64,000 nt of DNA from NCBI GenBank assembly GCA_030390025.1, contig CM059431.1, positions 102,178,001 to 102,242,000 of the forward strand, read 5' to 3'. Both the position numbers and the translations under genes were made by a program. The DNA is from Squalus acanthias. Its lineage: Eukaryota. Shown here in pieces: positions 23,442 through 49,212 of this stretch; position 1 is the stretch's first letter; every line of letters begins with the position of its first letter. The notes beneath the pieces were generated by a model that saw nothing but the letters and a program-made list of their open reading frames with translations, made no database searches and was not told where the DNA came from.

Positions 23442-25518
23442 CTCTGCTACCTCACCAAAGTGGCCCATTCTTCATGGGGACAATTAAAGCATCTCCACAG
23501 CCATGCCAGCCGAGGTCAGCTATCTCATCAGGATTGAATCTGGGACCTTATGGTCCGTGTGGCTTGACACTACACCACCACATGGTGTGCATCTACACAG
23601 TAAGGCCTCCGGGAGCTCCAAAAACAATCTTTTCTAGGTTCAATCTCAGATACACTACTTCTTCAATGCAACTTGGAGGGCAGCCAACACTTCACACTCT
23701 CAACGAGCCAATGGGGAAGAGGGGGCAGGGGTGAGGCCAAAGCAACTGACGTGATCATATTTGGCCGGCATTTCCTATACCCAAGCCAGCCGCTGGATGT
23801 GGATAGGGTTCGGATTATCACCACCAAGACTGGTCACAAATAATAGCCCCATCATTATTAAATGCGCAACAGTGCGAGGCCAGGGGATGGTACAGAACAG
23901 CTGACCAGGAATAATATACCACAGCAGCAACTGGCAAATGCCAAGTCCTTTTGGAATCCCATACTTGAATGGGCATCGTACTCACTGCTGCACTCACGGG
24001 GTTCAAAGTTTTTATGTTTGCGACTGATGAAAAATATCAGATTCTGCCAGTTGGCAGGCCTCCTATAGTCCTAATGTTAACTGCTTTTCCCAATTCAAGA
24101 AAGTCTCTTCCTGTTTTTTTTGCTACTGAGCAGCCTATATAATAGACTCTGTGTAACCGCGCAGTTACTCCCGCTTCCAATCATTTTGTTTCGGGCCAAT
24201 GACTCACTCCAGTGCTTTCGACGCTCCTGGAATGTGACTCGAGCTGCTGAGGTTTACGCGACCGTATTTCCTTTTAATTTCCAGGAAAGGCACTGCAACT
24301 AAATTTAGTCCTGGCAAGTGGGGTGGGGGAGGGACAAAGAAAGAGAAGGATTTAACTTATTTCCATGTTGTGAGTGCTTAATTCGCCAGATTCAAATCAG
24401 CTCCCCCTTCCATTGAAAGACACCTTTTACCATCGCCGAAGAATACAAACCGCAGGACTGAAAGGGCAACGATGACACTTTGCCTATCAATTGGGGCATG
24501 CTTCTTTTATACAGCAACGGTGGGATCTGCTCTCCCCGTAAACGCTCGTGACGCTGAACTCGGACCCTTGTGAGCGGGCTCTCCGTATGACCCATCTTGC
24601 CGGAAGGGCGAAGCAGGTGATGGTGCGCCGCGGGCTGGTTTTACACTCGACGGCAAAGGACACTGGGCGGAGTGCGGTCGGGCGGAGTGCTGGTCCACCG
24701 TCGCCTCTTCTGCGCCAACGGTGAGGTGAATTCCACCCCCCTCCGTCTGAGGTCCCCGTGCGATGCCGGCCCCGAGACACACCAATACTCTAAAAGCTCA
24801 GCTTTCTAAAGCTGAAATATTTTTGATTCGATAAAATAAATTTCGTTAAAAAAAAAATCATATATTTACAATGTTTGAATTTTGAATTTTTTTTAAATTT
24901 AGATTTTGAATTTTCCTCCCTTTGAACGCTGTGGCCGTTGGCTGTGCTATTGAACTATCAGTAACATTGCTCGGAGGAGCTAGCTGTCATCATGTATTTT
25001 ATGCAAAATCTGTCAATGTAAAGTCATGAACAAGTTGCGAGATACTTTAGCCTAGGAGAACAGTTTTAAATCAACTTTCAATGAACTCTTTACCTTCAAA
25101 ATCAGTGGGCAATATGGTTTTGGCAGGACTATTTTGACACGATTATTGTGCGGCTACCCAGTTTACTAGACTTAGAAACTAATGTTCAATTTCACCCCAC
25201 AAGCTCACTTAATACTAACAATTACACAGGTAATCAAGTCACTTGTTAAAGATGTGTATATATTTATATACACATACAAAGACACACACACACACATAAA
25301 AAAGTACACAAAATTCTACGCTTCATCAGTCCTTTCAGGACCGCCAACCACTGTTATAAAAAATCTAGACCTACCTCAGTTCTGTCTAAATGCTTATTTC
25401 ACAAAATGATGTCAAATAAGTTCATTAGAAAGGATAAACCAAACTATTGCACAAACATTAATCATCGTTATTCTCATTCCACCCCTTTCCAACTAAACCA
25501 AACATCTGTTACCATTAG

Positions 25519-25521
25519 ATA

Positions 25522-25562
<41 letters not shown>
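25519..25562. repeat. (TA)n microsatellite
   Basis: Seen directly. Confidence 0.95.
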
Positions 25563-25564
<2 letters not shown>

Positions 25565-26301
25565 AAATATGAAGGCAATTACTTGACAGCCGAACACCCC
25601 TCAGTTATATTGGAAAACCCTTCACAGTCTGAAGTATAACTGAGGTCCTGCCAGTTTGTACTCAGCCCGTATACGCTGTGGTGTGGACGGTGGCCCCAAT
25701 GCTTCAAACACCAACTGAGAACAGCAGTGACAAACAACGTCGTAACCTAAGTTGTTTCTAGACTTCATCTTAGCTTTTAATTCCAAAGATGGACCCATCA
25801 CGAGTGGCATCTGGCTACTTCTAATAGGAGTCAACAGTTTAAGTTTCCTTTGTTAACTGTGATTCACTGCATCTTGCTTGGTATTTTTGGCAGTCCAATA
25901 TTTGTCTGCTATTTAACAGCTTACTTCAACTTTTTTTTTTAAGAAGTGAAACATTGAGTTTTGCCTTTTATCTCTCCTTCTTAAACAATTCTGTAAACAG
26001 CAACGTATAATCCACTTCCGATGTGGCCCCTGAACATTAATCCTTGTCGAGAAGCCTTTAAAATGTCGCTTTTCATTGTACATGAACACCAGTCAGTCTA
26101 ACTGTCCTGCAATGTCATCAATGGCAGCTGGCATAATATCAGAGATGTCACTTTGTCAATCAGAGAATGTCGTGGGATACTACAATAGAGCTCCCTAGTT
26201 TACGCCTGTTTTAGCATCAATGATAGCTTTAGCACAGGACTGCAACCAACTGTATACCGTTGATCAGAAACTGGACAGAGTTAGGAGACTGCTCAAAACT
26301 G

Positions 26302-27549
26302 CTAACATGTGATGACGCCATGTTCACTCACAGGACTGCCATCATCGGGGTCACTGAAGCTAATGGAACTGTCCTCCTCCAAATCCTCCTCTAACTGCAG
26401 ACTCCCAAAAGAAAACGTATTTCTAGGCATCGGTGAGGAACTTACGGCAATGGGGTTCCCGAACACTAGTGGGTGGCTGAACGAATGAATGGCCTCAGAA
26501 TCGGAATCGCTGGATTCGGACCCACTGCTGGTAGACCCATCTATCAGTTGGCCCCCACTCGGGCGGTCCACAAGGCCAGCCGGGAGTAGCCTACGGATTG
26601 GTGGACTTGACTTTGCCAACCCAGCAGGTGACGAGCTGTGACCCACCAACCTGCCTTCCGAGCGTAGCGCTCTGGGCGAGCAGAGCTTGGGTTGGCTGCC
26701 GGTCCTGCACTCATTCAGTGGAGTGGAAGCTACGCGACTGAGGATAAACGGATCGGTCTCCGATCTGTTTCGGGCGCCCGGCACCCTCTGCGGATGCGCT
26801 CGGCTGAAAGTAGGGGAATAGCTGTTGTAACCATGGTGGCTGTACGTATGGCTGCTTGTATCTTCTTGTCTATGCCTACAATGGCCATTCTGTATAATAA
26901 AGCCCTTGGATCCTGCTCTGTTAACACTGGCATTGGGACTGGATCCTTTACTACTCGGACGTATTGGCGTAGCCGAGAGGCTATGATGACTTTCTGAGCC
27001 TCGAAATACCTCATGAACCAAAGAGCTATGTCTGGGCATTTGAGGTGTCCTTCCAGTATAAAAGGACAAGTTGGCCAGCTCATCATCAGTTAACTCTTCT
27101 TTTATATGGAGTGGACTACCTGCGAATCTGAAATCAGGAGAATCCCTACGTCTAAGATGGGTCATGCTTTCATCAAAGTATTCACCACTGTTAAACTCAT
27201 CCTCATAATTGTCATTTGTTTGCGAATGTGACCTGATTATCCGCCCTCTGATTAAATCATGCTCGCTATCTATATCACTGCAGTCAATGTAAGGAATGGA
27301 AGAGCTGCTTCCACGAGCAGCTCGAGATGCTGGACCTGCATTCTGTTGCTCTCTTTGGGCTTTCGCCTGGTGAACCTTGTCCCTCACAGTTTCCTCCTGC
27401 CCGTCCCCTTTGGGGCTCCTCGCTGGTGAGCGGCTCTTGCGTTCAACCCCGTCTTCGTCAGTTGACCGGGAAACTCCCAGATCCTTCCTCTGGTTAGGGG
27501 ACGGCGGTCCTGTTGATGCTGCCTGCGCTCCGAAAGTAAAAACACTGCT
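26302..27549 (-). CDS. FARP1: Extended terminal form of the same exon (415 codons plus stop), giving a putative GEF-less FARP1 isoform with a Ser/Pro/acidic low-complexity tail ending GVITC*
   Basis: 1248-nt stop-free frame continuous with the spliced FERM frame; by far the longest non-TE ORF; no repeats inside. Confidence 0.7.
   Translation of the reverse strand, partial: SSVFTFGAQAASTGPPSPNQRKDLGVSRSTDEDGVERKSRSPARSPKGDGQEETVRDKVHQAKAQREQQNAGPASRAARGSSSSIPYIDCSDIDSEHDLIRGRIIRSHSQTNDNYEDEFNSGEYFDESMTHLRRRDSPDFRFAGSPLHIKEELTDDELANLSFYTGRTPQMPRHSSLVHEVFRGSESHHSLSATPIRPSSKGSSPNASVNRAGSKGFIIQNGHCRHRQEDTSSHTYSHHGYNSYSPTFSRAHPQRVPGARNRSETDPFILSRVASTPLNECRTGSQPKLCSPRALRSEGRLVGHSSSPAGLAKSSPPIRRLLPAGLVDRPSGGQLIDGSTSSGSESSDSDSEAIHSFSHPLVFGNPIAVSSSPMPRNTFSFGSLQLEEDLEEDSSISFSDPDDGSPVSEHGVITC
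27336..27549 (-). CDS. FARP1: FARP1 coding exon (approx. exon 13, canonical spliced form): SSVFTFGAQAASTGPPS...EETVRDKVHQAKAQREQQNAG
   Basis: tcttttcag| acceptor in phase 0. Resembles FARP1 STSLTFGEGAES...EEVVKDRTQQSKPQ. Weak phase-1 donor GCAG|gtccag at 27335. Confidence 0.75.
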
Positions 27550-28127
27550 CTGAAAAGACAAGAGACGTCTTGGAGATAAATCTTTTGTAAAATACTTCTG
27601 CTCAAATTATTTTGTTGCTTATTTTTTTTTTTAAATAAACCCCCTCAGCAATTCCCCCCCCCCCCTCTTTTGAAGACATTGATTGCTTGCTAGAGAACTG
27701 TTCCATGGATGCCAAGTACTCTCCAGTACCTCCATCAAATAGCCACTATTCACGAGTGAGTCTTGACATTGAGGCTCTTCAAGCCTGGGAGAAGCATCAA
27801 TGCTGGCTTCGCACAACATCTACACATGCGGCTCCCGACGGGATAATGATCAGGAGCGGGAACCGTGGACGATTCCACCCCCCCCTCCCCGCTCCCTAAT
27901 CCAGGGTCAAGGAGGTCAAGTGTCATGCTCATGTTGCTGCCAAGGTCAGGTAACTCAACACAGACCAAGGGTCAAACCTTGGACCTTCCCACTCTCTCTG
28001 CTCAGCTAATTTCTCACTTGGCTTCTGCAAAGTTGGAAACAAACAACAGAAGTGTACTGAGAAAAAGAATTGAACTCAACATTTTTGCAAGACACAGTAA
28101 CAGGTTAATTTAGAGCTGGAATATAAA

Positions 28128-31142: not shown

Positions 31143-31206
31143 TTGTTTTGGCACCAGTGACTGATGTTCGGGCAAACTTCGGATGGATCGCATTTTACTA
31201 TGTTTC
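31143..31206 (-). CDS. FARP1: FARP1 coding exon (approx. exon 12): KHSKMRSIRSLPEHQSLVPKQ
   Basis: attttcag| acceptor, |gtcagt donor, 64 nt, restores phase 0; resembles FARP1 RKHSKIHSIRSL. Confidence 0.85.
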
Positions 31207-33809: not shown

Positions 33810-33878
33810 CTTTCGAACTGTATTTTTTTGTATCCTCCTTCTTTAACATAATCCAGCAGTTGCTTCTGAGTCCTCCCA
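33810..33878 (-). CDS. FARP1: FARP1 coding exon (approx. exon 11): GRTQKQLLDYVKEGGYKKIQFER
   Basis: tgttgtag| acceptor, |gtgaat donor, 69 nt; FA domain SGRTQ...FER. Confidence 0.93.
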
Positions 33879-34873: not shown

Positions 34874-35034
34874 CTGAACCTGAATGAAGAGCCGCGGCTG
34901 AAAAGAATGGGCTTGGGTTTTGGTTTGGGTTCTTCGAAGAGTCGGAAGAAGGCGTGATATTCAACGCATATCTTCCAGAAGGCCTTGCAGGAATCGCGGC
35001 TAGCCATGGAAAACTCCAAGGTATCCTGGCAGGA
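34874..35034 (-). CDS. FARP1: FARP1 coding exon (approx. exon 10): [54 protein letters not shown]
   Basis: gttgcag| acceptor, |gtaata donor, 161 nt; end of FERM C-lobe and start of FERM-adjacent (FA) domain. Confidence 0.94.
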
Positions 35035-35138
35035 CTGCAACAGACAGACAGAGACACACACGTCATCGCACACACCGCAGAAGAGGCAGCGGCCAGAAAG
35101 CGGCTTCAAGGGGCCTTTCGGAGAGGGCGCACACTTAC

Positions 35139-35234
35139 GTTCATCTCGGGACGGAATTTAATAAGGAATCGTTTCCTCTTAAAACTCAGCTTGCGAACCT
35201 TGGCCCAGTTGAACGAGTTGATCTTGTTGTTACC
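35139..35234 (-). CDS. FARP1: FARP1 coding exon (approx. exon 9): [32 protein letters not shown]
   Basis: gacgcag| acceptor, |gtaagt donor, 96 nt; FERM C-lobe [14 protein letters not shown]. Confidence 0.94.
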
Positions 35235-35245
35235 CTGCGTCAAAG

Positions 35246-35880
35246 AAAACAAAACAAGCACTAGGGTTTATTTCTAGAGGGATAGAATTGAAAAGTAGTG
35301 AAGTTGTGTCGAACCTTGGTTAGACCACACTTGGAGTACTGCGTACAGTTCCGGTCGCCATATTATAAAAAGGATATAGAGGCACTGGAGAGGGTGCAGA
35401 GAAGATTTACAAGGATGATACCAGAAATGCGAAGGTATACATATCAGGAAAGGGTGAACAGGCTGGGTCTCTTTTCTCTTGAAAAGAGAAGGCTGAGGGG
35501 TGATCTAATAGAGGTCTTTAAAATTATGAAAGGTTTTGATAAGAGTGGATACAGAGAGAGTGTTTCCACTTGTGGGGAAGAGCATAACTAGAGGCCATCA
35601 ATATAAGATAGTCACCAAGAAATCCAATAGGGAATTCAGGAGAAACTTCTTTACCCAGAGAGTGGTGAGAATGTGGAACTCGCTACCACAGGGAGTGGTT
35701 GAGGCGAATAGTATAGATGCATTTAAGGGGAGGCTAGACAAGCATATGAGGGAGAAGGGAATAGAGGGTTATGCTGATAGAGTTAGATGAGGAGGCTCAA
35801 GTGGAGCATAAACACCGGCATGGACTGGTTGGGCCGAATGGCCTGTTTCTGTGCCGTATATCCGATGTAATCCTATGTAA
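35246..35880 (+). mobile_element. CR1 LINE 3' fragment abutting the exon-9 acceptor
   Basis: RTLVRPHLEYCVQFRSPYYKKDIEALERVQRRFTRMIPEM; tail gtaatcctatgtaa. Confidence 0.9.
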
Positions 35881-35991
35881 AACACGAGGGTGTCAGTTTA
35901 ACTCCAAGTAGGACAAGTCAGTAGCCTGAGCCGTGTTCTGTAAGCGCAGTGAAGTGGCTCCTTGGATGCCTGCCACGTTCGGCGATCTTAC

Positions 35992-36139
35992 CTGGAACAC
36001 GATGATCCCGGTGTGCGACACAGACAGGTTGATCTTCGTCCCCTCTCTGTCTTTCGCGCGATGTTGCCGGATTCCATACATTTCTAATCTCCTGGCGATC
36101 TCGAGGAGTTGGTAGTCAGAAGCGGCGGGCGTGTGTCCT
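35992..36139 (-). CDS. FARP1: FARP1 coding exon (approx. exon 8): GHTPAASDYQLLEIARRLEMYGIRQHRAKDREGTKINLSVSHTGIIVFQ
   Basis: ccccaaaag| acceptor, |gtaaga donor, 148 nt; LEMYG FERM motif. Confidence 0.94.
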
Positions 36140-36149
36140 CTTTTGGGGA

Positions 36150-36315
36150 AAAAAGTGAGAAGTCGCACAACACCAGGTTATAGTCCAACAGTTTTATTTG
36201 AAATCACAAGCTTTCGGAGCTGCTGCCCCTTCGTCAGGTGAAGTGAAGGAATACGAATCGACAAAGCATATATAGACAGAGAACAATGCATGTGTAGCGT
36301 ACAATCTCAGACGAC
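36150..36315 (-). mobile_element. Penelope-like element terminal-repeat fragment containing a minimal hammerhead motif
   Basis: Near-identical to 62771-62925, which is linked to a PLE endonuclease C-terminus; flanked by an 8-bp direct repeat tttgggga (36142-36149 and 36316-36323). Confidence 0.8.
36204..36242 (-). ncRNA. Minimal type-I hammerhead ribozyme motif (PLE type)
   Basis: Minus strand ttcac-CTGACGA-a-ggggc(agca)gctcc-GAAA-gc-tt-gtga: stem I tcac/gtga, 5-bp stem II, palindromic AAGCTT stem III. Confidence 0.7.
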
Positions 36316-36844
36316 TTTGGGGAGAGAGGGAAAAAAAGGACACAATTTCAGAACATGATATATATATTTTTTTAAATCTCTGCCAATTTCCATTCTCCCT
36401 GTGCATTTCCTGTCCCCCCGCCACATTCTCCTGCTGCTCCTGGCTTCAGCAGAATTGCTCCCCGATTTCCGGCAATACCATGCAAAGACTGTCCACCAGG
36501 GGGTGCATGACATCACCGCACGGTAACCGGCCTCACCAACTCCCAACTCCCCGTCCCATTGGGCCAGAATTTGGCGCCAGAATAAGGGCAAAGACTCTGA
36601 GGAACGAGCTTAAAAAGGTCGTGCATATGTGGGCGTAAATGTAGTTTAACCCTTCACCTCCCCCTGCGCTCGCTGTGGCCTCCTCCTCCTCTTCAAATCC
36701 CTCCATGGCCTCGACCCCCTCCCATACCTCGTCCAGCCCTACAACACTCCGAGATCTCAGCGCTCCTCCAATTCCGGCCTCTTGCGCATCGGATGGAACA
36801 ATGATTTGTGGCAGAGGTTTCGCCATTGGAAGTTGGGAGTATTT

Positions 36845-37680
36845 CATCGGATTACATAAGATATACGGCACATAAACAGGCCATTCGGCCCAACCAGTCC
36901 ATGCCGGCGTTTATGCTCCACTCGAGCCTCCTCCCGTCTTTCCTCATCTAACTCTATCAGCATAACCCTCTATTCCCTTCTCCCTCATATGCTTGTCCAG
37001 CCTCCCCTTAAATGCATCTATACTATTCGCCTCAACCACTCCCTGTGGTAGCGAGTTCCACATTCTCACCACTCTCTGGGTAAAGAAGTTTCTTCTGAAT
37101 TCCCTATTGGATTTCTTGGTGACTATCTTATATTGATGGCCTCTAGTTATGCTCTTCCCCACAAGTGGAAACATTCTCTCTGTATCCACTCTATCAAAAC
37201 CTTTCATAATTTTAAAGACCTCTATTAGGTCACCCCTCAGCCTTCTTTTTTCAAGAGAAAAGAGACCCAGCCTGTTCATCCTTTCCTGATAGGTATACCC
37301 TCGCATTTCTGGTATCATCCTTGTAAATCTTCTCTGCACCCTCTCCAGTGCCTCTATATCCTTTTTATAATATGGCGACTAGAATTGTACGCAGTACTCC
37401 AAGTGTGGTCTAACCAAGGTTCGATACAGGTTTAGCTTAACTTCCCTACTTTTCAATTCTATCCCTCTAGAAATAAACCCTAGTGCTTGGTTTGCTTTTT
37501 TTTAATGGCCTTGCTAACCTGTGTCGCAACATTTAAAATGATTTGTGTATTTGTACTCCTAGACCCCTTTGCTCTTCTACCCCACCTAGACTCGCACCCT
37601 CCAAGTGATAAGTGACCTCCCTATTCTTCCTACCAAAATGTAATACCTCACAGTTATCTGTGTTGAACTTCATTTGCCAA
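36845..37680 (-). mobile_element. CR1 LINE 3' fragment, same subfamily as 35246-35880, in inverted orientation
   Basis: QRRFTRMIPEMRGYTYQERMNRLGLFSLEKRRLRGDLIEVFKIMKGFDRVD. Confidence 0.92.
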
Positions 37681-37929
37681 TTCTGAATCCTCTTCACTAG
37701 AAGACCTGTGGTGTTTACAGCGGGGAGTCAAGTTTCATAGACGGAGTGTCCTGGGTGGCAACACAGGCCTGGAGTTCCCGCACGGCTTCCGCCAAGTTCA
37801 AAGCTTAATCTGGGCCCAATCAGATCGCACAATTTTAAGCAAGCGAGTTGCGCCCATTACAACAACTGGCATATATATAAAAAACACCTTTAACATAGTA
37901 AGGCACTTCACAGGAGCGTTATCAGGCAA

Positions 37930-38337
37930 AAGAGAAGGTTGAGGGGTGATCTAATAGAGGTCTTTCAAATTATGAAAGGTTTTGATAGAGTGGATACAGA
38001 GAGAATGTTTCCACTTGTGGGGGAAGAGCATAACTAGAGGCCATCAATATAAGATAGTCACCAAGAAATCCAATCGGGAATTCAGGAGAAACCTCTTTAC
38101 CCAAGAGAGTGGAGAGAATGTGGAACTCGCTACCACAGGGAGTGGTTGAGGCGAATAGTATAGATGCATTTAAGGGGAGGCTGGACAAGCATATGAGGGA
38201 GAAGGGACCAGAGGGTTATGCTGATAGAGTTAGATGAGGAAAGACGGGAGGAGGCTCGAGTGAAGCATAAATGCCCCATGGACTGTTTGGGCCGAATGGC
38301 CTGTTTCTGTGCCGTATATCCCATGTAATCCTGTGTA
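37930..38337 (+). mobile_element. CR1 3' fragment (same subfamily) splitting an L2 tail (37865-37925 and 38338-38548)
   Basis: L2 sequence ...atcaggcaaaa / aaatttgacaccgagcc resumes after the CR1. Confidence 0.8.
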
Positions 38338-38725
38338 AAATTTGACACCGAGCCACATAAGGAGATATTAGGGACAGGTGACCAAAAGCTTGGTCAAAGC
38401 GGTAGGTTTTAAGGAGCGTCTTAAAGGAGAGAGAGAGGCGGAGTGATGGAGAGGTTTAAGCAGGGAATTCCAGGCTGAAGGCAAGGCCGCCAATGGTGGA
38501 GCGATGAAAATCGGGGATGTGCAAGAGGCTAAAATTGGAGAAGCGCATTGCACAATGAGCTGCAATGATCACCATCAATTCCCTCTTTCATTGCCTCTAC
38601 TTCCTCCCCCTCCCCGCCACTGAAATCGGGTGTTAAAAACACAATTAATGGGGAGTCTTTTTGACCTAGATTTGAAAAGGTGTTCTGACCACAACACCGT
38701 AGAGAGCAGCTACTTGAAGACTTAC

Positions 38726-38840
38726 ACATGCCTGCGGTGAAACTCCGTTATCTTGTCCTCCAGTGCCTCTTGGCGAGGTATGTACTTGTTTTTCTCTAAA
38801 TGCTCGCGGATAACAGCTTCATCATAATCCCCAATTTCCG
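38726..38840 (-). CDS. FARP1: FARP1 coding exon (approx. exon 7): SEIGDYDEAVIREHLEKNKYIPRQEALEDKITEFHRRHV
   Basis: cattgcag| acceptor, |gtaagt donor, 115 nt, phase 1-2; translated by hand. Confidence 0.93.
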
Positions 38841-38899
38841 CTGCAATGAATCAGAGAAGCTGTCGTTAACTCAGTCACTTCATAAAATCACTCACACAA

Positions 38900-39490
38900 A
38901 CAACAACAACAACAACTTGTATTTATATAGCGCCTTTAACGTAGTAAAACGTCCCAAGACAGGAGTATTATAAGACAAAAAATTTGACACCTGAGCCACA
39001 TCAGGAGATATTAGGGCAGGTGACCAAAAGCTGGTCAAAGAGGTAGGTTTTAAGGAGCGTCTTAAAGGAGGAACATAACATAAGAACATAAGAAGTAGGA
39101 GCAGGAGTAGGCCATATGGCCCCTCGGGCCTGTTCCGCCATTCAATAGGATCATGGCTGATCCGAACCTAGACTCACGTCCACTTCCCTGCCCGCTCCCC
39201 ATAACCCTTAATTCCTTATCAGCTAGGAAAGAGAGGTAGTGAGGCGGAGAGGTTTAGGGGGGGAATTCCAGAGCTTAGGGCCCAGGCAACAGAAGGCACG
39301 GCGACCAAAGGTTGAGCGATTATAATCAGGGATGCTCAAGAGGGCAGAATTAGAGGAGCGCAGATATCTCGGGGGGTTGTGGGGCTGGAGGAGATTACAG
39401 AGATAGGGAGGGACGAGGCCATGGAGGGATTTGAAAACAAGGATGAGAATTTTGAAATCAAGGCGCTGCTTAACCGGGAGCCAATGTAGG
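38900..39490 (-). mobile_element. L2 3' fragment interrupted by a CR1 3' tail (about 39073-39222)
   Basis: L2 ...cttaaaggaggaa / aggaaagagagg continues across the insert. Confidence 0.8.
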
Positions 39491-40338
39491 ATCAGTGAGT
39501 ACAGGGACCTTGCAATTTTTCCATCCCCCCACCCCCCGCGCCACCCCACAATTTTTAGTTGAAACATCTGCCATCTCTTGACCCAGGCAGCGGATTTAGA
39601 CAAGATTCACGCAATCCCAACCCAGCTTAACTTGTAAAGTCATCTTCACCAACTTCTGGTGTTGCTGCTGCTGGTGGTGGTGTCCAAGTTGGGAGAGCTG
39701 TTCTGCACACTAACTGAGTTAACAGCCTGGTGCAGTTGTAATCACAAGAGTCATATCGATCAGCGAGTAGAATCTTACAGCACAGGGGGCAGCCATTCGG
39801 CCCATCGAGCCTGAGCTGGCTCTTTGAAAGAGCCGTCCAATTCGAAGGAATCGAAGACAATGAGAAAAGAATAGATGAGTATACGCAAGGATTAGCGTTG
39901 GATGAAGTATGGCAGGAGGAGGCTCATGTGGAGCACAAAAAGAAAGTCTTGCATTTCTATAGCGCCTTTCACGACCACCGGACATCCCAAAGTGCTTTAC
40001 AGCCAATTAAATACTTTTTGAAGTGTGGTCACTGTAGTAATGTAGGAAACGCGGCAGCCAGTTTGCACACAGCAAGCTCCCACAAACAGCAATGTGATAA
40101 TAACCAGATAATCTGTTTTAGTGATGTTGGTTGAGAGATAAATATTGGCCCCAGGACACCAGGGAGAACTCCCCTGCTCCTCTTCAAAATAGTGCTGTGG
40201 GATCTTTTACATCCACCTGAGAGAGCAGACGGGGGCCTCGGTTTAACATCTCATCCGAAAGACGGGACCTCCGACAGCGCGGCGCTCCCTCAGTACTGCC
40301 CCTCCGACAGTGCAACGCTCCCTCACTACTGCACTGGA

Positions 40339-41162
40339 GGGGGCGATTTTGTCAATGGGGACGTGTTGGAGGTGGGACTGCCGCTTGTCGGGTCGATGTC
40401 CCGTCTCCATCGATTTGTGGCCAACCCACGCTATTTTCCCTTGATTGACCTTGTTAAGCCCGCCCAGCGGGCTTAGCAGGCCAATTAAGGGAAAGCCGGT
40501 TACAGAGAACGTCAAAATTTTTTGACAGATGAATTGTCATCGTTTGACAACTCTGTGAAGCTGTCAAACACTGACATTCTCTGTTGTTTGATGAGCCCTT
40601 GTATTCAAGACTCATCAAACCTCTTTTGTGAGCAGAAATTAGATAGTTGTTGCATCGGAGAATGCAGCAGCCATCTGTCATCTCTGCCAGTGAGATGTGA
40701 GACTCTTTGCATCCCCAACTGTTGAAGCCTACAGGAAGAAACAAAGGTAAGGAAACATTTTCTATCACTTTCCACTTACCTCACATACTCACCTCTCCAC
40801 ACTTGCAACCATCACTCACCTCCACAGCGCACTTTTGGACCCCTCCGACCCCCGCAGACCCACTGCTCGCCTCGGTGACCCTGGCGGGGTTTCCCGACGT
40901 CGGGAAGCCCGCGCCTCTGTTGGAAAAATGGGGATAATCCGCTTAACTACCTGTTAACTACCTGTTAACAGGCAGTTAAGTGGCTGTAATCCCCTTCCCG
41001 CCTCCAGGAGATGGGACCTGGCACGGGTCGGCTAACCGCCTCTTGGGAAGATGGCACGGAGGCGGGTTGGGGGCGGGATGGGCACCCGCCCCCAGATTCT
41101 GCCATTTTCCCGGCAGTCCTGCCTCCAAACCCTGCCTCCCCAGGGCTGGCAAGATCGCGCCC
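40339..41162. mobile_element. PIF/Harbinger non-autonomous element A
   Basis: TIR gggggcgattttg / caagatcgcgccc (11 of 13 match), 3-bp TSD gga/gga. Confidence 0.8.
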
Positions 41163-41191
41163 GGAGTGTCAGACTAGATTTTTGTGCTCAG

Positions 41192-42401
41192 GGGGGCGAT
41201 TTTCCCACTGGAAGCGGTTTCGGTTTGGGTGGCTTTGAAAGCCGCCTCCACTGATAGTTTTCAAAAAATTGCGATTTTCCCATGATTGGCCGTTTGATTT
41301 CAGAGGTGTGGGATGCCCTTGGTCAATTAGTGTTTTGGGACTGAAACCCGCCTCTGTTGACAGCATTTTTCCAGTCTGATTTTATGGCTTCTTGCTCCCT
41401 TGGCTCATTCCACAGCATTTCTGCCTATGCTGCATCATCTGCAACATATTTTGAGAAACCACACTGTCCAATTCCAAGGCAAGGGCCTCCCCGAGGCTCT
41501 CGGATGAGGCGCTGCAAAAGTTGTTTGAGGGGGTGACAGCTAGCATGGAGGTGCTCTTCCACTTATCTGGGAGGAAGAGGCCTGCCAAAGAAACCAAGGC
41601 TGTGTGGGTCCAGCTGGCAAGGAATATAAGCTCCAGATCTGTGTGCAGATTGGGAGAATGTTTATGTGTATTGATGAAATGCCATCCCTGTTGGAAAGCA
41701 TTAAAATGATTTGATGCCAAAATGTTGGCGTTATGGCATCTGTTCTTTCGCCTTAGGCAGCTCCACATTGCGGGCTCCGCCACACTTGCATTGTCAGGTT
41801 GGTGGCCAGAGTGAAAGGAGGCCAGAGAGTCATGTCCATTGTCAATGATGTCCTAGGATGGAGCCAAGGACATGTGCCAACTTGGGCAACCTATGCAAAT
41901 CTGGCCAGGATAAGTTCATCCCTTGCATCCCGGGCAGCCATGTGCTCGCGTGCTGCCGCTGCTGCTGGTCGATACACCGGCGCTCTGACCTCCTCTTGCT
42001 CCTCCTCCTGCTCCTCCTCCTCATCTAAGGTCCATGGTGAAAGAAAATGAATGGTTCCCATGCTGCTTGCAGATGCCTCCGTTGGGGAAGCGCTCATTGC
42101 AAGCGGGGAGAGGGTCTTCCAAGGAGGTCCCACAGTTGATAGATTCAAGCTGCAGCACCTCCGACTTCGGAAGGCCTTCTAAAAGTGCTCAAAGACCTTT
42201 TAAAGCAAAGTTCTGTCACCTGCAATTAATCCCTGATGAAATCTCCGATTTAATGTTTGAGCTGCAGCTGTGAGGAGACCACCCACTTGTCAACCCGCCA
42301 GGTTCAGCTGGCGTGGTTTAGGAGGGTCGTGGAACACGCCGAAATGGTCGAAAAATAACAAGGGCCTTTCCCGCCCCCAAAGGCCTCAGAAAATCGCCCC
42401 C
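41192..42401. mobile_element. PIF/Harbinger deletion derivative B with Myb/SANT-like and nuclease C-terminal remnants
   Basis: Perfect TIR gggggcgattttc/gaaaatcgccccc. Plus strand PRLSDEALQKLFEGVTASMEVLF..GRKRPAKETKAVWVQLARNISSRS; minus strand acidic run then AARDARDELILARF*. Confidence 0.78.
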
Positions 42402-42694
42402 CAAGTCTCTGGGGTGGGACTTGAACCCACAACCTTCTGACTCAGAGGCGAGTGTGCTATCCACTGAGCCACAGCTGACACCAGCACAGACCAGCTGGGC
42501 CGAAAGGCCTGTGTCTGTGCTGTGAGCTCTATGTGACTCCTCCTTCTGGCACTATAAAGAATCACCACTAATGCACACGTGTGAAGTCCTGCACACGTGC
42601 AGAAGTAAATCCTCGGGATAAAGTAATGGAAGGGGACTTTGAACAGTCTGCCACCCGAAACCCAGACGAGAGCATCTGCGTAAAGTGCACTCAC

Positions 42695-42792
42695 ACTGGA
42701 CGATATGAGACACCAGGAGCGCCGCACTTGTATCATTGCAGGTCATCCTCCCCGAAGCGAGGTCCTGCTTGATCTGCAGGGCAAAGAGGTAC
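42695..42792 (-). CDS. FARP1: FARP1 coding exon (approx. exon 6): [32 protein letters not shown]
   Basis: ttttgcag| acceptor, |gtgagt donor, 98 nt; FERM central lobe. Confidence 0.94.
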
Positions 42793-42874
42793 CTGCAAAA
42801 TACAAAAATATCCAAATCAGTCGTCTCACTAACAATGAGGCAAAGGTTATGCATTACACAGCCGATGTACACAG

Positions 42875-43390
42875 AACCCTACAGCACAGGAGGAGGCCAT
42901 TCGGCCCATCGTGCCTGTGCCGGCTCTTTGAAAGAGCTCTCCAATTAGACCCACTCTCCCCCTGCTCTTTCCCCACAGCCTACAGTATAACAGTGACTAC
43001 ACTTCAAAAAGTACTTCATTGGCTGTAAAGTGCTTTGGGACGTCCGGTGGTCGTGAAAGGCGCTGTAGAAATGCAAGTCTTTCTTTTTAGCCCCTGCAAA
43101 TTTTTCCTTTTCAAGTATTTATCCAATTCACTTTTGAAAGTTACTATTGAATCTGCTTCCACCGCCCTTTCAGGCAGCGCATTCCAGATCACAACAACTC
43201 GCTGCATAAAAAAGATTCTCATCTCCCCCTCTGGTTCTTTTGCCAATTACCTTAAATCTGTGTCCTCTGGTTACCGACCCTCCTGCCAGTGGAAACAGTT
43301 TCTCCTTCTTTACTCGAACAAAACCATTCATGATTTTAAACGCCTCTATTAAATCTCCTCCTTAACCTTCTCTGCTCGAAGGAGAACAAA
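42875..43390 (-). mobile_element. CR1 3' end interrupted by a plus-strand Deu-SINE tail (about 42981-43088)
   Basis: CR1 ...ccccacagcc / agcccctgcaaa resumes after the SINE tail. Confidence 0.78.
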
Positions 43391-44089
43391 ACCCTTCATT
43401 CATTTAACTATATCTGCGATGCTATTCTGCCGGTCAGCTTTACGAATGGATCTTTTGGCGTCTCAGTCCTGCGTTGCTCATCCTGGTCCTTTGGGGTTGT
43501 CAACTCTGATTGGAGGTTTCATCACATGACCACCTGCTTCCAACCGCTCCCAACCATTGGTCGCCCGACACGTCCACTCTCGCCTCAGCCAATCGGAAAG
43601 CGAACAGACTCTTCATTACCCGATTGGATGCTTCAGTCAAACAGCCATTTCCTCCCATCTCCAATATTTTTTTAAATCACTAACTAAAAAATTAATGCCC
43701 CTATTATTTTTCTTCTGGGTTGCATGCAGCACTGCCCTGGAGATTTACTCTAATTCATGGAGGGTTGGCAATCCAATGGCATTGCCGTGTTGTTGTTGGA
43801 TAGAAATAAACTTTCAATGGATAGAATTCTTAGCAAAAGCCTACACCCTATAAAATCAATTAAAAGCCAACCCCCCCCGTGCTCCTACAGTCAACTTCAA
43901 TGAAAGGGGAGGCACATCACAACTGCAGTCGAAGTAAGGTCTTTTAACAGTAGGAATTGCCGGAGTAATTCCCCTCAGCATTTTCAAGCAACTTTGCAAA
44001 TCATCATTATTTAATACAAGTTATCTATCTTCTCCAATGAGTCACTGGGTAAAGCCAATGTGTAACTGAGCCTCACTAACCAGAAAAGA

Positions 44090-45322
44090 ACAGCTTGTAT
44101 TTATACAGCGCCTTTAACGTAGTACAACGTCCCAAGGAGATTCACAGGAGCGATTATCAAACAAAATTTGACACCGAGCCACGTAAGGAGATAATAGGAC
44201 AGATGGTCAAAGAGGTCGGTTTTAAGGAGCGTCTTAAAGGAGAAGAGAGAGGTAGAGAGGCGGAGAGGTTTAGGGAGGGAATTCCAGAGCTTAGGGCCTC
44301 GGCAGCTGAAGGCACGGCCGCCAATGGCAGAGCGATTAAAACCAGGGATGCGCAAGAGGCCAGAATTGGAGGAGGTTACAGAGATCTCGAAGGGTTGAGG
44401 GGCTGGAGGAGATTTCAGAGATAGGGAGGGGCGAGGCCACGGAGAGACTTGAAAACAAGGATGCAAATTTTGAATTTGAGGTGTTGTCGGACCAAATTGA
44501 ATCAAGTTCCCAATTCCTAATGGGCCCACACTAATTGGCAATGTCTGTTAGAGAGGTTGGGTGAAAATGGAACAAATTTCATATTGGTGCAGTAGGGGGC
44601 CCTCTTCTGAGGATTCCAATGCTCTCCTGGCCGGCCTCCCATCTTCCACCCTCCATAAACTTAAGGTCATCCAAAACTCTGCTGCCCGTGTCCTAACTCG
44701 CACCAAGTCCTGTTCACCCCTGTGCTCGCTGACCTGCATTGGCTCCAGGTTAAACAATGGCTCGAATTTAAAATTCTCATCCTTGTTTTCAAAACCCTCC
44801 ATGGCCTTGCCCCTCCTTATCTCTGTAATCTTCTCCAGCCCCACAACCAACGTTACCCCTAATGTCTTTTATTGGTTGTGTGGCCCCGTCACAGTCTCGT
44901 GCATGCACGCAACTTAACATTGGAAAAGCTGGTCTTGGGCTAAGCGGGCCCGACAGAGAGCCGCGCAGTCACACAGCTTAGAGGAAACATTGCTGAGAAC
45001 CCTCCCAGATCTCTGCGCTCCTCCATTTCTGGCCTCTTGCGCATCCCCGATTTTCATCGCTCCACCATTGGCGGCTGTACCTTCAGCTGTCGAGGGCCTA
45101 AGCTCTGGAATTCCCTCCCTAAACCTCTCCGCCTCTCTACCTCTCCCTCCTCCTTTAAGACGCTCCTTAAAACCTGCCTCTTTGACCAAGCTTTTGGTCA
45201 CCTGTCCCTAATATCTCCTTCTGTGGCTCGGTGTCAAGTTTTGTCCGATAATCGCTCCTGTGAGGCGCCTTGGGATGTTTTACTGTGTTAAAGGCGCTGT
45301 ATAAATGCAAGTTGTTGTTGCT
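44090..45322. mobile_element. Cluster of L2 3' fragments (44090-44492 minus; 44613-44850 and 44998-45322 plus)
   Basis: L2 family sequence and tails. Confidence 0.82.
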
Positions 45323-45724
45323 GTTCGAGCAGAGTAGAGGTAGCTTTATTCTGTATCTAGCCGTGCTCGACATAACCTTGGAGTGTTTGATGATAACACA
45401 GGGTGCCTGAAATGGGAAGAGTTCCATTCACCATCATTAACGTCCCTCATCTTGGAAGAGCGCAAAAATGAAGAAATGTGTTAGAAATTATTTCCGAATT
45501 TTTTCTGCTCCTGGTATTCACCACACGTAATGTCATTGCTAGAAATACAGACTGCCGGGACCACTGACAGATCAGAGCAGCAAGTATTCGCAGTATTGAC
45601 CATTAAACCATCATTAGAAATTAGGGCATCTGTTCATCAATGGCTCAGAATTAGCCACCAATTTCTCTACTCCACACCACAGCTTCGATTGGCTATTGAT
45701 GTGTTGGACCCACATATTTTTTTT

Positions 45725-46316
45725 TATACATTCTTGGGATGTGGGCGTCGCTGGCAAGGCCCAGCATTTATTGCCCATCCCTAATTGCCCTTGAGAAGGT
45801 GGTGGTGAGCCACCTTCTTGAACCGCTGCAGTCCGTGTGGTGAAGGTGCTGCCACGGTGCTGTTAGGGAGGGAGTTCCGGGATTTTGACCCAGCGACGAT
45901 GAAGGAACGGCCGATATATTTCCAAGTCAGGATGGTGTGTGACTTGGAGGGGAACTTGGAGGTGGTGGTGTTCCCATGCGCCTGCTGCCCTTGTCCTTCT
46001 AGGTGGAAGAGGTCGCGGGTTTGGGAGGTGCTGCCGAAGAAGCCTTGGCGAGTTGCTGCAGTGCATCTTGTAGATGGTACACACTGCAGCCACGGTGCAC
46101 CGGTGGTGGAGGGAGTGGACGTTTAAGGTGGTGGACGGGGTGCCGATCAAGCGGGCTGTTTTGTCCTAGATGGTGTCGAGCTTCTTGAGTGTTGTTGGAG
46201 CTGCACTCATCCAGGCAAGTGGAGAGTATTCCCTCACACTCCTTACTTGTGCCTTGTAGATGGTGGAAAGACTTTGGGGAGTCAGGGGGTGAGTCACTCG
46301 CCACAGAATACCTAGC
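45725..46316 (-). mobile_element. 3' fragment of a second CR1-clade LINE (tail gggcaattagggatgggcaataaatgctg)
   Basis: HSLHHRCTVAAVCTIYKMHCSNSPRLLRQHLP; another copy at 49610-49905 (+). Confidence 0.75.
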
Positions 46317-47031: not shown

Positions 47032-47625
<594 letters not shown>

Positions 47626-48777: not shown

Positions 48778-49212
48778 GTACGGCAGCATCGTGGTTATGT
48801 TACTGGATTATTAATCCAGAGGCCTGGACTAATGATGAGGAGACATGAGTTCAAATCAAATGTAAATTTAAATTTACATTCAGTTAATTAAATAAATCTG
48901 GAATAAAAAAGCTAGTATCAGTAATGGTGACCATGAAACTACCAGATTGTCGTAAAAACCCATCTGGTTCACTATTGTCCTTAAGGGAAGGAAATCTACA
49001 GTCCTTACCCGGTCTGGCCTCTATGTGACTCCAGATCCACAGCAATGTGGTTGACTCTTAACTGCCCTCTGAAATGGCCGAGCGAGTCACTCAGTATCAA
49101 AACGCTACAAGAAACTATAATAAGACCTTCACCACACGGACTGCAGCGGTTCAAGAAGGCGGCCCACCACCACATTCTCGAGGGCAATTAGGGATGGGCA
49201 ATAAATGCTGGT
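48778..49212 (+). mobile_element. tRNA-headed MER131/MetaSINE-like SINE
   Basis: aaaacccatctggttcact...agggaaggaaat...ccttacccggtctggcct...gtgactccag core; 3' tail shared with the LINE at 45725; second copy at 55115-55490 (-). Confidence 0.65.

What the first reader, a model, noticed from the sequence alone, without database searches (positions are those of the whole stretch)
26302..27549. Read-through of a weak donor gives a ~345-aa alternative C-terminus: a GEF-less, FRMD7-like FARP1 isoform
Seen: the spliced FERM-FA frame (978 nt over 10 exons, phases consistent) enters this exon in phase 0. It passes a poor phase-1 donor (GCAG|gtccag, 27335) and stays open for 1034 more nt to TAG at 26302. 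The region from about 23450 to 28100 has no recognisable TE, although the rest of the window is TE-dense. The tail holds motif-like blocks: SSSIPYIDCSDIDSE, GSTSSGSESSDSDSE, PMPRNTFSFGSLQLEE and terminal GVITC. Known: FARP1 normally continues into DH-PH-PH domains, whereas the paralog FRMD7 is FERM-FA plus one long terminal exon. Inference: this locus encodes both architectures by a splice-versus-read-through choice, possibly retaining the ancestral FARP/FRMD7 tail. Alternatively it is a FERM-only paralog, since no DH exon was recognisable in positions 1-26000.
Basis: partly seen in the sequence, partly recalled or inferred. Interest (0 to 1): 0.8.

Follow-up and report, generated by a model that had tools for sequence, protein, structure and literature searches.

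The report
FARP1 read-through isoform, FRMD7-like tail
A shark FARP1 gene can skip a weak splice site and read on into a conserved 344-residue tail, giving a short protein without the enzyme half; this short form is already annotated in other vertebrates, and its tail proves to be related to the tail of the eye-movement gene FRMD7, which papers describe as having no relatives.

Summary
On the minus strand an exon starts at 27549 in phase 0. It passes a weak phase-1 donor (CAG|GTCCAG, last exon base 27336) and stays open to TAG at 26304-26302.

The gene is true FARP1. Its DH-PH-PH exons lie outside the window, the next one 39.6 kb downstream, so the "FERM-only paralog" alternative is rejected. 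Contigs of two RNA-like runs show the short exon spliced at exactly these sites. The same runs hold genome-collinear sequence through the tail, the stop and about 2.8 kb beyond.

The tail is 41-68% identical to 19 other vertebrate FARP1 short forms. FERM-FA-tail models of 729-903 aa are annotated in many vertebrates. A 2021 paper found nine tail peptides in mouse brain. The isoform itself is therefore already known.

What I did not find in print:
- The tail is homologous end to end with the FRMD7 terminal exon (hhalign E 2.6e-19; 21 controls E >= 0.13).
- It is also homologous with the read-through part of the same exon in FARP2 (E 2.4e-15).
- FRMD7 lacks the donor at the homologous spot.

FRMD7 thus looks like a fixed copy of the GEF-less isoform of an ancestral FARP gene. 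A second in-frame donor overlaps the last codon and the stop.

The parts
27550..27570 (-). Polypyrimidine tract and acceptor (..cgtctcttgtcttttcag|) of the large exon
   Evidence: Sequence. The matches of the spliced contigs X1 record 5 and X2 record 30 end exactly at 27549.
27336..27549 (-). Proximal 214-nt part of the exon, shared by all forms (SSVFTFGAQ...QQNA + first base of Gly), entered in phase 0
   Evidence: Two contigs (1,637 and 4,552 letters) match only 27334-27549 of the 6-kb stretch laid.
27330..27338 (-). Proximal weak 5' splice site CAG|GTCCAG, phase 1. None of positions +3 to +6 matches the consensus GTRAGT (consensus recalled). These positions also encode Pro-Ala of the tail.
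   Evidence: The next exon (L007) begins with GT, which explains why the contigs match on to 27334.
26305..27335 (-). Read-through coding extension: with the split Gly codon, 344 residues (GPASRAARGSSSSIPYIDCSD...GVITC). Predicted disordered, with about seven conserved motif blocks.
   Evidence: 41-68% identity to 19 other FARP1 short forms; pLDDT under 50, no secondary structure.
26302..26304 (-). Stop codon TAG of the short isoform
   Evidence: The Callorhinchus model P0002 ends with the same GVITC.
26301..26310 (-). Candidate distal 5' splice site ACAT|GTTAGC, phase 1. It overlaps the last (Cys) codon, and the stop TAG occupies intron positions +3 to +5. Joined to the next exon it would stay in frame (T+GT = Cys, then SLACSPHV..). 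No transcript evidence here.
   Evidence: In 5 of 21 long gene models that carry the STSSG motif, the tail runs to its last residue and then continues with next-exon sequence.
23450..26301 (-). Putative 3' UTR of the short isoform. It is single-copy and TE-free. Its end was not determined: contigs reach at least the edge of the stretch laid.
   Evidence: X2 records 25-29 and X1 records 1-3 are collinear with the genome. ATTAAA at 25781 and 24278, and no AATAAA before 22827.
31143..31206 (-). 64-nt exon (R)KHSKMRSIRSLPEHQSLVPKQ that brings the frame to phase 0
33810..33878 (-). FA-domain exon GRTQKQLLDYVKEGGYKKIQFE(R), ends in phase 2
34874..55632 (-). Eight further FERM-domain exon matches (about 55632-55513, 52076-52035, 50374-50180, 42797-42690, 38847-38725, 36138-35992, 35237-35139, 35040-34876)
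   Evidence: tblastn with P0002, P0015 and P0005. Exact ends were only roughly rebuilt.

Best explanation
This is the composite exon of a shark FARP1 gene that follows the FA-domain exons. The choice is between splicing and 3'-end formation.

If the weak proximal donor (last exon base 27336) is used, the mRNA continues 39.6 kb downstream into the exons for the DH-PH-PH exchange-factor half. This gives canonical FARP1. If the donor is passed over, the exon reads on in frame for 344 residues to TAG at 26304-26302 and a long 3' UTR. This gives a FERM-FA-tail protein of FRMD7-like build that cannot act as an exchange factor.

The donor is weak because its intron positions +3 to +6 double as codons of the most conserved tail motif (G-P-A-S). 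The tail is an old, probably disordered module shared by FARP1, FARP2 and FRMD7. FRMD7 has lost the donor and the GEF exons, so it is the fixed, stand-alone version of this isoform.

Shown here: the frame, the sites, the conservation, the homology, the spliced form, and the presence of collinear tail and downstream sequence in RNA-like runs.

Inferred: that the collinear sequence is mature mRNA ending in this exon, and what the short protein does. Going by FRMD7 and C. elegans FRM-3A, it would be a membrane/CASK-type scaffold, or a competitor of the long form for FERM ligands.
For: Gene identity.
- FERM/FA exons lie upstream. DH-PH-PH exons lie on the same strand at C7:102165727 down to 102093534.
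- The next exon starts GT TCC CTG, so the junction reads G|SLACSPHVSELS.
- Its DH exon scores better against solved FARP1 (4h6y, E 1.3e-35) than FARP2 (9.1e-27).

Splicing.
- X1 record 5 (1,637 letters) and X2 record 30 (4,552 letters) match only 27334-27549.
- Record 30 has 2,906 further letters on the donor side and 1,430 on the acceptor side.
- So these runs hold spliced cDNA, and the proximal donor is used.

Read-through.
- In the same runs X1 record 4 (591 letters) lies on 26773-27363.
- X2 record 29 (1,055 letters) lies on 26066-27120, through the stop.
- X2 records 28, 27, 26 and 25 continue to 23529, and X1 records 3, 2 and 1 reach 23450.

Conservation.
- One search gave 82 hits of 728-2075 aa. 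By my count of its table, 53 have no RhoGEF domain in the precomputed Pfam column, and 51 of these are 729-903 aa. Many are named FARP1.
- Callorhinchus P0002 is 65% identical and ends with the identical GVITC.
- Identity to 19 short forms from chimaera to mammals is 41-68%, without frame breaks.
- Three of the 4 single-letter differences seen in the tail are synonymous.

Prior record (passages read).
- PMC8248162 reports a mouse Farp1 'intron-retained' isoform of 800 aa, with nine intron-specific peptides and 244 spectra in 132 brain samples. The human transcript ENST00000319526 annotates the stretch as exon.
- PMC7260190 reports that C. elegans frm-3 makes FRM-3A (FERM-FA plus a domain-less C-terminus) and FRM-3B (the FARP ortholog) by alternative splicing.

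FRMD7 link.
- The tail alone hits Latimeria FRMD7 (P0215) at E 8.7e-13 in a library of 1.84 billion proteins (named).
- BLASTP gives two collinear matches to P0248.
- The profile of 20 FARP1 tails against 16 FRMD7 tails gives Prob 99.2, E 2.6e-19, 259 columns, 2-333 of 344 against 52-317 of 327.
- The reversed control and 20 column-shuffled controls give E >= 0.13.
- The FARP2 read-through part against the FARP1 tail profile gives E 2.4e-15.
Against: - No listed run is on record as RNA. 'RNA?' is the tool's guess. I infer cDNA from the spliced contigs.
- The contig that crosses the donor (X1 record 4) has only 28 letters on the exon side.
- Contig depth cannot quantify isoforms.
- The collinear sequence could in part be unspliced precursor.
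- The poly(A) site was not found. The only signals in 26301-23450 are ATTAAA at 25781 and 24278, and contigs run past both.
- Coding conservation of the tail would also be kept if it served only as an insert in a long GEF form made through the distal donor.
- The mouse peptides cannot tell these two forms apart.
- No protein evidence exists for the shark.
- No nucleotide-level dN/dS could be computed.
Confidence: 0.8

Rival explanations
1. The tail is coding, but only as an internal insert. The exon is always spliced, either at the proximal donor or at the distal donor that overlaps the last codon and stop (last exon base 26307). This would give canonical FARP1 or a long FARP1 of about 1,350-1,400 aa that carries the tail inside the FERM-DH linker. 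Under this reading the FERM-only protein is not a real product.
For: - The distal site ACAT|GTTAGC is in phase 1 and stays in frame with the next exon.
- By a crude consensus matrix, with frequencies recalled from memory, it scores higher (-0.2) than the proximal site (-3.8).
- One search lists 29 models with a RhoGEF domain.
- Of the 29 models of 1,000 aa or more that I examined, 21 carry the STSSG tail motif.
- In 5 of those 21 (P0003, P0005, P0017, P0029, P0066) the tail runs to its last residue and then joins next-exon sequence.
- The last residue is Cys in 13 of 20 FARP1 short forms, as a T|GT donor would require.
Against: - X2 contigs run collinear with the genome through 26307-26302 and on for about 2.8 kb.
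- 51 short models without GEF are annotated.
- FRMD7, and FRM-3A of C. elegans, show that the stand-alone FERM-FA-tail build is viable (PMC7260190).
- The two readings are not exclusive: the exon may have all three fates.
Confidence: 0.12
2. Non-functional intron retention. The read-through is splicing noise at a weak donor, and the open frame has no role.
For: The donor is weak. The first literature report called it intron retention (PMC8248162, passages read).
Against: - A 344-codon open frame has a chance probability of about 7e-8.
- It is 41-68% identical across jawed vertebrates without frame breaks, which unconstrained intron sequence could not keep.
- It is homologous to the coding terminal exon of FRMD7.
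- Nine peptides were found in mouse (PMC8248162).
Confidence: 0.03
3. One reading: the locus is a FERM-only paralog with no GEF exons.
For: No DH or PH match lies in window positions 1-26000.
Against: - All DH-PH-PH exons lie on the same strand 12-84 kb beyond the window's low end.
- The first of them has a fitting phase-1 acceptor.
- A 4,552-letter spliced contig continues 2,906 letters beyond the donor.
- The true FERM-only paralog, FRMD7, lies on another contig, C6.
Confidence: 0.01

Closest known systems
FARP1 'intron-retained' / short isoform: mouse, 800 aa (Li et al. 2021, PMC8248162, passages read); human ENST00000319526 as cited there; 729-903-aa FERM-FA-only FARP1 models in UniProt/NCBI
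   Same: The same exon is extended past the same G|GT-CCA donor. The tail is collinear, with the same motif blocks. FERM-FA is kept and DH-PH-PH is lost.
   Different: The shark and chimaera tails run to ...SDPDDGSPVSEHGVITC. The mammalian models end earlier (..EEEDE or ..LHG). The paper treats it as intron retention in an Alzheimer context. In the passages I read it does not mention FRMD7, deep conservation or a splice-versus-polyadenylation choice.
[quoted passage not shown]
   Same: FERM-FA followed by one long terminal coding exon. The FERM exon matches cover the same stretches of the query protein. The tail is homologous over 259 aligned columns, including PAS..SS..PYI.(D)S, the PRHSSL..E block, SSGTESSDSDSE, HP.(L/V)FG and SLQ.(D/E)E.
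   Different: It is a separate gene (C6 in this genome) with no DH/PH exons nearby. At the homologous spot it reads EAA-PAS, with no GT, so it has no splice option. It ends ..HLTIYTEFI, not ..C. My FRMD7 set is 14 cartilaginous fishes (including this genome's own copy) plus the coelacanth. Tetrapod and teleost FRMD7 were not tested.
FARP2
   Same: In the same genome (C5) the exon after FA is a 406-aa open frame. It has a phase-1 donor CAAG|GTTCTG at the equivalent place (LQG|SVA). Its read-through part is homologous to the FARP1 tail (E 2.4e-15). DH-PH-PH exons follow.
   Different: I have no transcript or database evidence here that FARP2 reads through. Its tail does not match the FRMD7 profile significantly on its own (E 0.081).
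C. elegans frm-3 isoforms FRM-3A and FRM-3B (Zhou et al. 2020, PMC7260190, passages read)
   Same: One FARP-type gene gives a FERM-FA protein with a domain-less C-terminus and a FERM-FA-DH-PH-PH protein by alternative processing. FERM-FA alone is functional as a synaptic scaffold that recruits LIN-2/CASK.
   Different: No sequence comparison of the FRM-3A tail with this tail was possible here. The exon mechanics in the worm were not examined.

Membership tests
FARP1 gene | FERM (N, M, C lobes) and FA coding exons | tested here: met
   Nine exon matches by tblastn. The joined frame GRTQKQLLDYVKEGGYKKIQFERKHSK.. is open. The hits carry PF09379, PF00373, PF09380 and PF08736.
FARP1 gene | DH-PH-PH exons downstream in the same transcription unit | tested here: met
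   One search finds 14 matches on the minus strand of C7, from 102165727 down to 102093534. The acceptor and phase fit. Spliced contig X2 record 30 carries 2,906 letters beyond the donor.
FARP1 gene | Closer to FARP1 than to FARP2 | tested here: met
   The C7 DH exon scores 4h6y (FARP1) E 1.3e-35 against 4gyv (FARP2) 9.1e-27. The C5 paralog gives the reverse order. Named hits of the tail are FARP1.
FARP1 FERM-FA-tail short isoform | In-frame extension of the same exon past the proximal donor, collinear with the annotated tails up to the stop | tested here: met
   Identity is 68% to the Callorhinchus tail, with the identical C-terminus GVITC.
FARP1 FERM-FA-tail short isoform | Mature mRNA that reads through the donor and ends in this exon | tested here: inconclusive
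   Collinear contigs cover the tail, the stop and about 2.8 kb beyond in two runs. No record bridges the donor by 31 letters. The runs are only guessed to be RNA. The poly(A) site was not found.
FARP1 FERM-FA-tail short isoform | Protein product detected | not testable with these tools
   The only evidence is for mouse, from PMC8248162 (nine peptides). Those peptides do not separate the short form from a long insert form.
FRMD7 | Orthology to the FRMD7 gene | tested here: not met
   The FRMD7 ortholog of this genome lies on C6. Its tail P0232 is 81% identical to a shark 'FERM domain-containing protein 7-like' protein. The window gene is FARP1.
FRMD7 | C-terminal region homologous to that of FRMD7 | tested here: met
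   E 8.7e-13 to Latimeria FRMD7; E 2.6e-19; 21 controls, all E >= 0.13.
FRMD7 | No GEF module in the product | tested here: met
   This holds for the read-through product only: the stop at 26304-26302 precedes all DH/PH exons.

The most novel reading that the evidence does not exclude
FRMD7 did not invent its 'orphan' C-terminal half. It is the fixed, stand-alone descendant of the GEF-less read-through isoform of an ancestral vertebrate FARP gene.

All three paralogs keep the same large exon after FA. FARP1 and FARP2 keep a weak phase-1 donor inside it, and FRMD7 has lost that donor together with the GEF exons.

The shared tail is a disordered module at least as old as jawed vertebrates. It carries about seven linear motifs, which may dock on the protein's own FERM-FA. 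In FARP1 the stop codon itself sits inside a second 5' splice site, so one exon has three fates: canonical, long-insert and FERM-only.

I found no paper stating the tail homology. Two FRMD7 papers state the opposite.
Probability: 0.5. Interest if true: 0.55.

Novelty: already known. Interest (0 to 1): 0.4.

Why it matters
The isoform call itself is ordinary: databases and one proteomics paper already hold it.

What may be useful is the link between two literatures. [quoted passage not shown] FARP1 papers treat the FERM-DH linker as non-conserved (PMC6041286, passage read).

The comparison here points the other way:
- The FRMD7 tail is a paralog of an alternative FARP1 tail, and likely of a FARP2 tail.
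- The comparison pins down which short motifs have been kept since before sharks and bony vertebrates split. These would be natural candidates for binding sites and for reading FRMD7 nystagmus variants outside the FERM domain.
- Brain FARP1 may supply an FRMD7-like, GEF-less protein. This bears on the redundancy that Watkins et al. raised.

It is also a clear example of a 5' splice site kept weak by the coding demands of the read-through frame.

Tried and rejected
- RNA runs: no RNA holder listed. All 13 rows are 'RNA?' guesses or '?'.

- Parts without cover. The upstream intron bins 27692-28095 have depth 0-2.3 in X1 and X2, and X1 has none over 25470-26681.

- Relatives' DNA. The two large runs of related organisms (X11, X12) gave no listed pieces over 25250-27700. 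The planned check for stops, frameshifts and dN/dS in related sharks therefore failed. Their pieces over 23451-25249 (about 5.8% other letters) and over the intron 27716-28152 (about 5.9%) differ equally, so nothing can be said about UTR constraint.

- Poly(A) site: no AATAAA between 26301 and 22828, so the 3' end is left open.

- Pfam on the three tails: no family.

- 'Near' length search: 139 hits, with the best 120 listed. None is named FRMD7. The unnamed ones are stand-alone copies of the same exon in short contigs.

- Names of ten weak hits: two are FARP1-type or FERM proteins of teleosts, one is an unnamed hypothetical protein, and the rest carry no name. No further FRMD7 turned up.

- ESM Atlas on the FARP2 tail: best score 0.82 (growth hormone receptor fragments), which is within chance.

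- AlphaFold2 of the Callorhinchus short form with 35 sequences. Mean pLDDT is 46.8, and even the FERM lobes F1 and F2 are poor. The flat, low-confidence tail fits disorder but the model is too weak to prove it.

- Automatic rebuild of all ten upstream junctions. Some junctions were chosen wrongly, including the last one. I fixed the last two by eye and left the others approximate.

- Earlier findings of this scan: nothing on this genome or on FARP1 or FRMD7.

- Distal phase-1 donors. By a crude matrix whose frequencies I recalled from memory, none inside the tail is good (best: 27186 at 1.7 and 27120 at 0.6). The mammalian-type junction after HPL(V/M)FG has no GT in the shark (GGG).
Full report
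**1. What is in the sequence**

On the minus strand a stop-to-stop frame of 434 aa spans 26302..27606. It is the longest of the six frames of 200 aa or more in the window. A good acceptor (cttgtcttttcag|AGCAGT) puts the exon start at 27549.

After 214 nt comes CAG|GTCCAG. The last exon base is 27336 and GT lies at 27335-27334, phase 1. The frame then stays open for 1,034 nt, counting the TAG at 26304-26302.

The quoted motifs are all there. With the local stop frequency, 344 stop-free codons have a probability of about 7e-8.

Upstream, tblastn with three homologues finds nine FERM/FA exons between 55632 and 33812. A tenth exon of 64 nt lies at 31206-31143. Exon 33878-33810 ends in phase 2 and the 64-nt exon restores phase 0, so the large exon is entered in phase 0. 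The joined frame carries only the terminal stop. My automatic rebuild of all the junctions was imperfect, so I did not re-derive the figure of 978 nt.

The TE-free zone is real. No repeat family of the window falls between 23439 and 29581. Contig depth is single-copy from 23450 to 28095 and rises to 1e4-1e6 from 28096 on.

**2. Which gene**

The window is G000:C7:102178001-102242000 of a 3.7-Gb genome. The best protein matches of the tail and of the paralogs are cartilaginous fishes.

The DH-PH-PH part of a bat FARP1 model finds 14 exon matches on the same strand of C7, from 102165727 down to 102093534. The nearest one lies 12.3 kb below the window's first base. The intron after the proximal donor is therefore about 39.6 kb.

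That exon has the acceptor ttgttccag|GTTCCCTGGCG. With phase 1 the junction reads ..QQNA-G-SLACSPHVSELSLNSQSG, which matches the mammalian ..G-SLTGSPHLSELSINSQGG.

The C7 DH exon matches solved FARP1 better than FARP2. The paralog on C5 does the reverse. The first coding exon lies at C7:102405407-102405565, so the gene spans more than 310 kb.

**3. Transcript evidence**

No run is on record as RNA. I laid two small runs from two studies (X1, X2) and two large ones (X11, X12) on 23450-29500.

X1 record 5 (1,637 letters) and X2 record 30 (4,552 letters) match only 27334-27549. The match is bounded by the acceptor on one side. On the other it runs to the donor plus the two letters GT that the next exon shares. 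The rest of each contig lies elsewhere. For record 30 that is 2,906 letters on the donor side and 1,430 on the acceptor side. These are spliced cDNA contigs, so the proximal donor is used.

In the same runs, genome-collinear contigs cover the rest of the region:
- X1 record 4 lies on 26773-27363.
- X2 record 29 lies on 26066-27120, through the stop.
- X2 records 28 to 25 run down to 23529.
- X1 records 3 to 1 run down to 23450.

Record 4 overlaps record 5 by 30 letters (27334-27363). This is what a branch in a 31-mer graph looks like, but it leaves only 28 letters on the exon side. That is less than the 31 the tool asks for, so bridging is not formally shown.

I read the data as one composite terminal exon with a 3' UTR of at least 2.8 kb. 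That extent coincides with the TE-free zone. This is inference. Precursor RNA or DNA in the runs is not excluded, and the poly(A) site was not found.

**4. Conservation and prior record**

The tail alone finds 82 longer proteins. By my count of that table, 53 have no RhoGEF domain in the precomputed Pfam column. Of these, 51 are 729-903 aa with FERM and, in most, FA domains. Many are named FARP1, from chimaera, sturgeon, teleosts, frogs, a marsupial, bats, pig and a lemur. The other 29 carry RhoGEF.

A search of the whole library of 1.84 billion representatives gives only 40 hits.

Aligned from the GPAS motif, the window's tail is 41-68% identical to 19 other short forms over 307-338 aligned residues. 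Five of the 24 rows I chose were dropped because my motif search missed them. The near-invariant blocks are:
- GPASRAARGSSSSIPYIDCSDIDSE
- SQTNDNYE
- PRHSSL.DE.FRG
- NRSETDPFILS
- GSTSSGSESSDSDSE
- HPLVFGNP
- SFGSLQLEE

Three of the 4 single-letter differences seen in the tail in X1 and X2 are synonymous.

Li et al. 2021 (PMC8248162, passages read) report the same stretch in mouse as a translated 'retained intron'. They describe an 800-aa isoform, nine intron-specific peptides and 244 spectra in 132 brain samples. They note that human ENST00000319526 annotates it as exon. A 2025 review repeats this (PMC12294458, passages read).

**5. The FRMD7 and FARP2 link**

Searching the shark's own genome with the tail gives two weak matches inside large open frames:
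- C5, a 406-aa frame, E 1.2e-3
- C6, a 333-aa frame, E 9.7e-3

Both loci have FERM exons just upstream, and these match the same stretches of the query protein as the FARP1 exons do. C5 also has DH-PH-PH exons that match solved FARP2 best. C6 has none nearby. Its open frame is 81% identical to a shark 'FERM domain-containing protein 7-like' protein, and 50% and 37% identical to Callorhinchus and Latimeria FRMD7.

One of the 40 hits, P0215 at E 8.7e-13, is Latimeria FRMD7. BLASTP of the tail against the full Latimeria protein gives two collinear matches, 59-183 with 385-506 and 311-408 with 591-684.

A profile of 20 FARP1 read-through tails, starting at GPAS and so holding no canonical sequence, was compared with a profile of 16 FRMD7 tails. 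The result is probability 99.2 and E 2.6e-19 over 259 columns. It covers 2-333 of 344 against 52-317 of 327. One reversed and 20 column-shuffled controls give E of 0.13 or worse and scores of 19 or less, against 139.

The read-through part of the FARP2 exon matches the FARP1 tail profile at E 2.4e-15 over 255 columns. It does not match the FRMD7 profile on its own (E 0.081).

The junction itself is homologous:

| Paralog | Protein at the junction | DNA | Source |
|---|---|---|---|
| FARP1 | NAG\|PAS | CAG\|GTCCAG | |
| FARP2 | LQG\|SVA | CAAG\|GTTCTG | |
| FRMD7 | EAA-PAS | no GT | |

No Pfam family covers any of the three tails.

[quoted passage not shown] A FARP1 structure paper calls the FERM-DH linker non-conserved (PMC6041286, passage read). 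In the searches I found no paper that links the FRMD7 tail to a FARP1 isoform. The library does not hold most subscription journals, so this is not proof of absence.

My FRMD7 set holds cartilaginous fishes and the coelacanth only.

**6. A possible third fate**

The last codon and the stop read ACA T|GT TAG C. This is a phase-1 GT whose intron positions +3 to +5 are the stop codon. Joined to the next exon (GT TCC CTG..) it gives ..GVIT-C-SLACSPHV.. in frame.

Twenty-nine models of 1,000 aa or more were examined, and 21 of them carry the STSSG motif. In five of those (two sturgeon, Aldrovandia, Danionella, Prochilodus) the tail runs to its last residue and then continues with next-exon sequence. 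The Cys is kept, or replaced by Ser or Tyr, as a split T|NN codon would give. Other models join earlier, for example a bat model after HPLMFG. There the shark has GGG and no GT.

Thirteen of the 20 short forms end in Cys.

These are gene predictions, and I have no shark transcript for this junction. It is a lead only.

**7. How it most likely works**

The choice is between recognition of a poor 5' splice site and 3'-end formation within the extended exon.

The site is poor for a reason that can be read off the sequence. Positions +3 to +6 (CCAG) are the Pro and Ala codons of the most conserved tail motif. The coding demand of the read-through frame therefore holds the donor away from consensus. 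FARP2 shows the same weakness (GTTCTG).

The short product keeps the lipid- and receptor-binding FERM-FA unit. It lacks the exchange factor.

From what is published for its relatives, I infer a scaffold role, or competition with the long form for FERM ligands:
- FRMD7 binds CASK and promotes neurite growth (PMC3633374).

This is untested.

AlphaFold2 gives the tail no structure, but the model is weak overall.

I also folded FERM-FA (residues 38-362 of P0002) together with the tail (405-751). The verdict was 'weak support':
- Score 0.51 (runs 0.51, 0.52, 0.51), best of 3 controls 0.02.
- The mark was reached by 51 of 78 solved complexes and 2 of 108 mismatched pairs.
- At 0.60 or under, it was reached by only 5 of those 78 solved complexes and by all 4 mismatches that passed (of 180).
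- The runs agree in at least 12% of their contacts.
- The partner's pLDDT is at least 29.
- No interface was given, and disordered chains are untested.

I take it only as a hint that a tail motif may dock on FERM-FA.

**8. Verdict**

- The isoform is already known.
- The added value is the family-wide picture. One large exon after the FA domain is shared by FARP1, FARP2 and FRMD7, and FRMD7 is the fixed GEF-less form.
- Read-through as mature mRNA in this shark, the 3' end, the third splice fate and any function remain to be shown.

Noticed in passing
L002:1231-2451 (+) = G000:C5:80795574-80796794: The FARP2 paralog has the same build. It is a 406-aa open exon after FA, with the acceptor at L002:1231 and a weak phase-1 donor CAAG|GTTCTG near L002:1471-1472. 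The read-through part of 325 aa is homologous to the FARP1 tail (E 2.4e-15). Whether FARP2 makes a GEF-less form here is untested.
   Followed up: partly
L003:760-1743 (+) = G000:C6, FRMD7 last exon: The FRMD7 terminal exon aligns with the FARP1 tail. At the place of the FARP1 donor it reads GCC CCA GCA (A-P-A), with no GT. It ends ..HLTIYTEFI in 9 of the 16 cartilaginous-fish and coelacanth tails compared (..TDFI in 4..GFI or ..GII in 2, different in the coelacanth). That resembles a C-terminal ligand motif (my guess).
   Followed up: partly
window 26301-26310 (-): The stop codon TAG lies at intron positions +3 to +5 of a possible phase-1 donor, T|GTTAGC. This donor would splice the whole tail in frame to the DH-PH-PH exons. 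The last residue Cys is kept in 13 of 20 short forms.
   Followed up: partly
window 31143-31206 (-): The 64-nt exon (RKHSKMRSIRSLPEHQSLVPKQ) and the first 29 residues of the large exon are absent from the Callorhinchus model P0002. This may be alternative use or a model error.
   Followed up: no
window 11439-12653 (-): A 404-aa open frame with a reverse-transcriptase domain (RVT_1, E 1.2e-26) lies inside the long FARP1 intron. It is a retrotransposon copy. I only observed it.
   Followed up: partly
window 28096-29500 and 22970-23438: These are very high-copy repeats. Contig depth there is 1e4-5e6 in all four runs. Repeat families D1-D5 recur at 31360-33200 and 35400-38340, and some form 94-99% inverted pairs (35305-35793 with 36941-37428). 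They frame the single-copy block that holds the exon and its putative UTR.
   Followed up: no
G000:C7:102093534-102405565: By exon matches the FARP1 gene spans more than 310 kb. The window holds only its middle part. The first coding exon lies 163 kb above the window's last base.
   Followed up: partly
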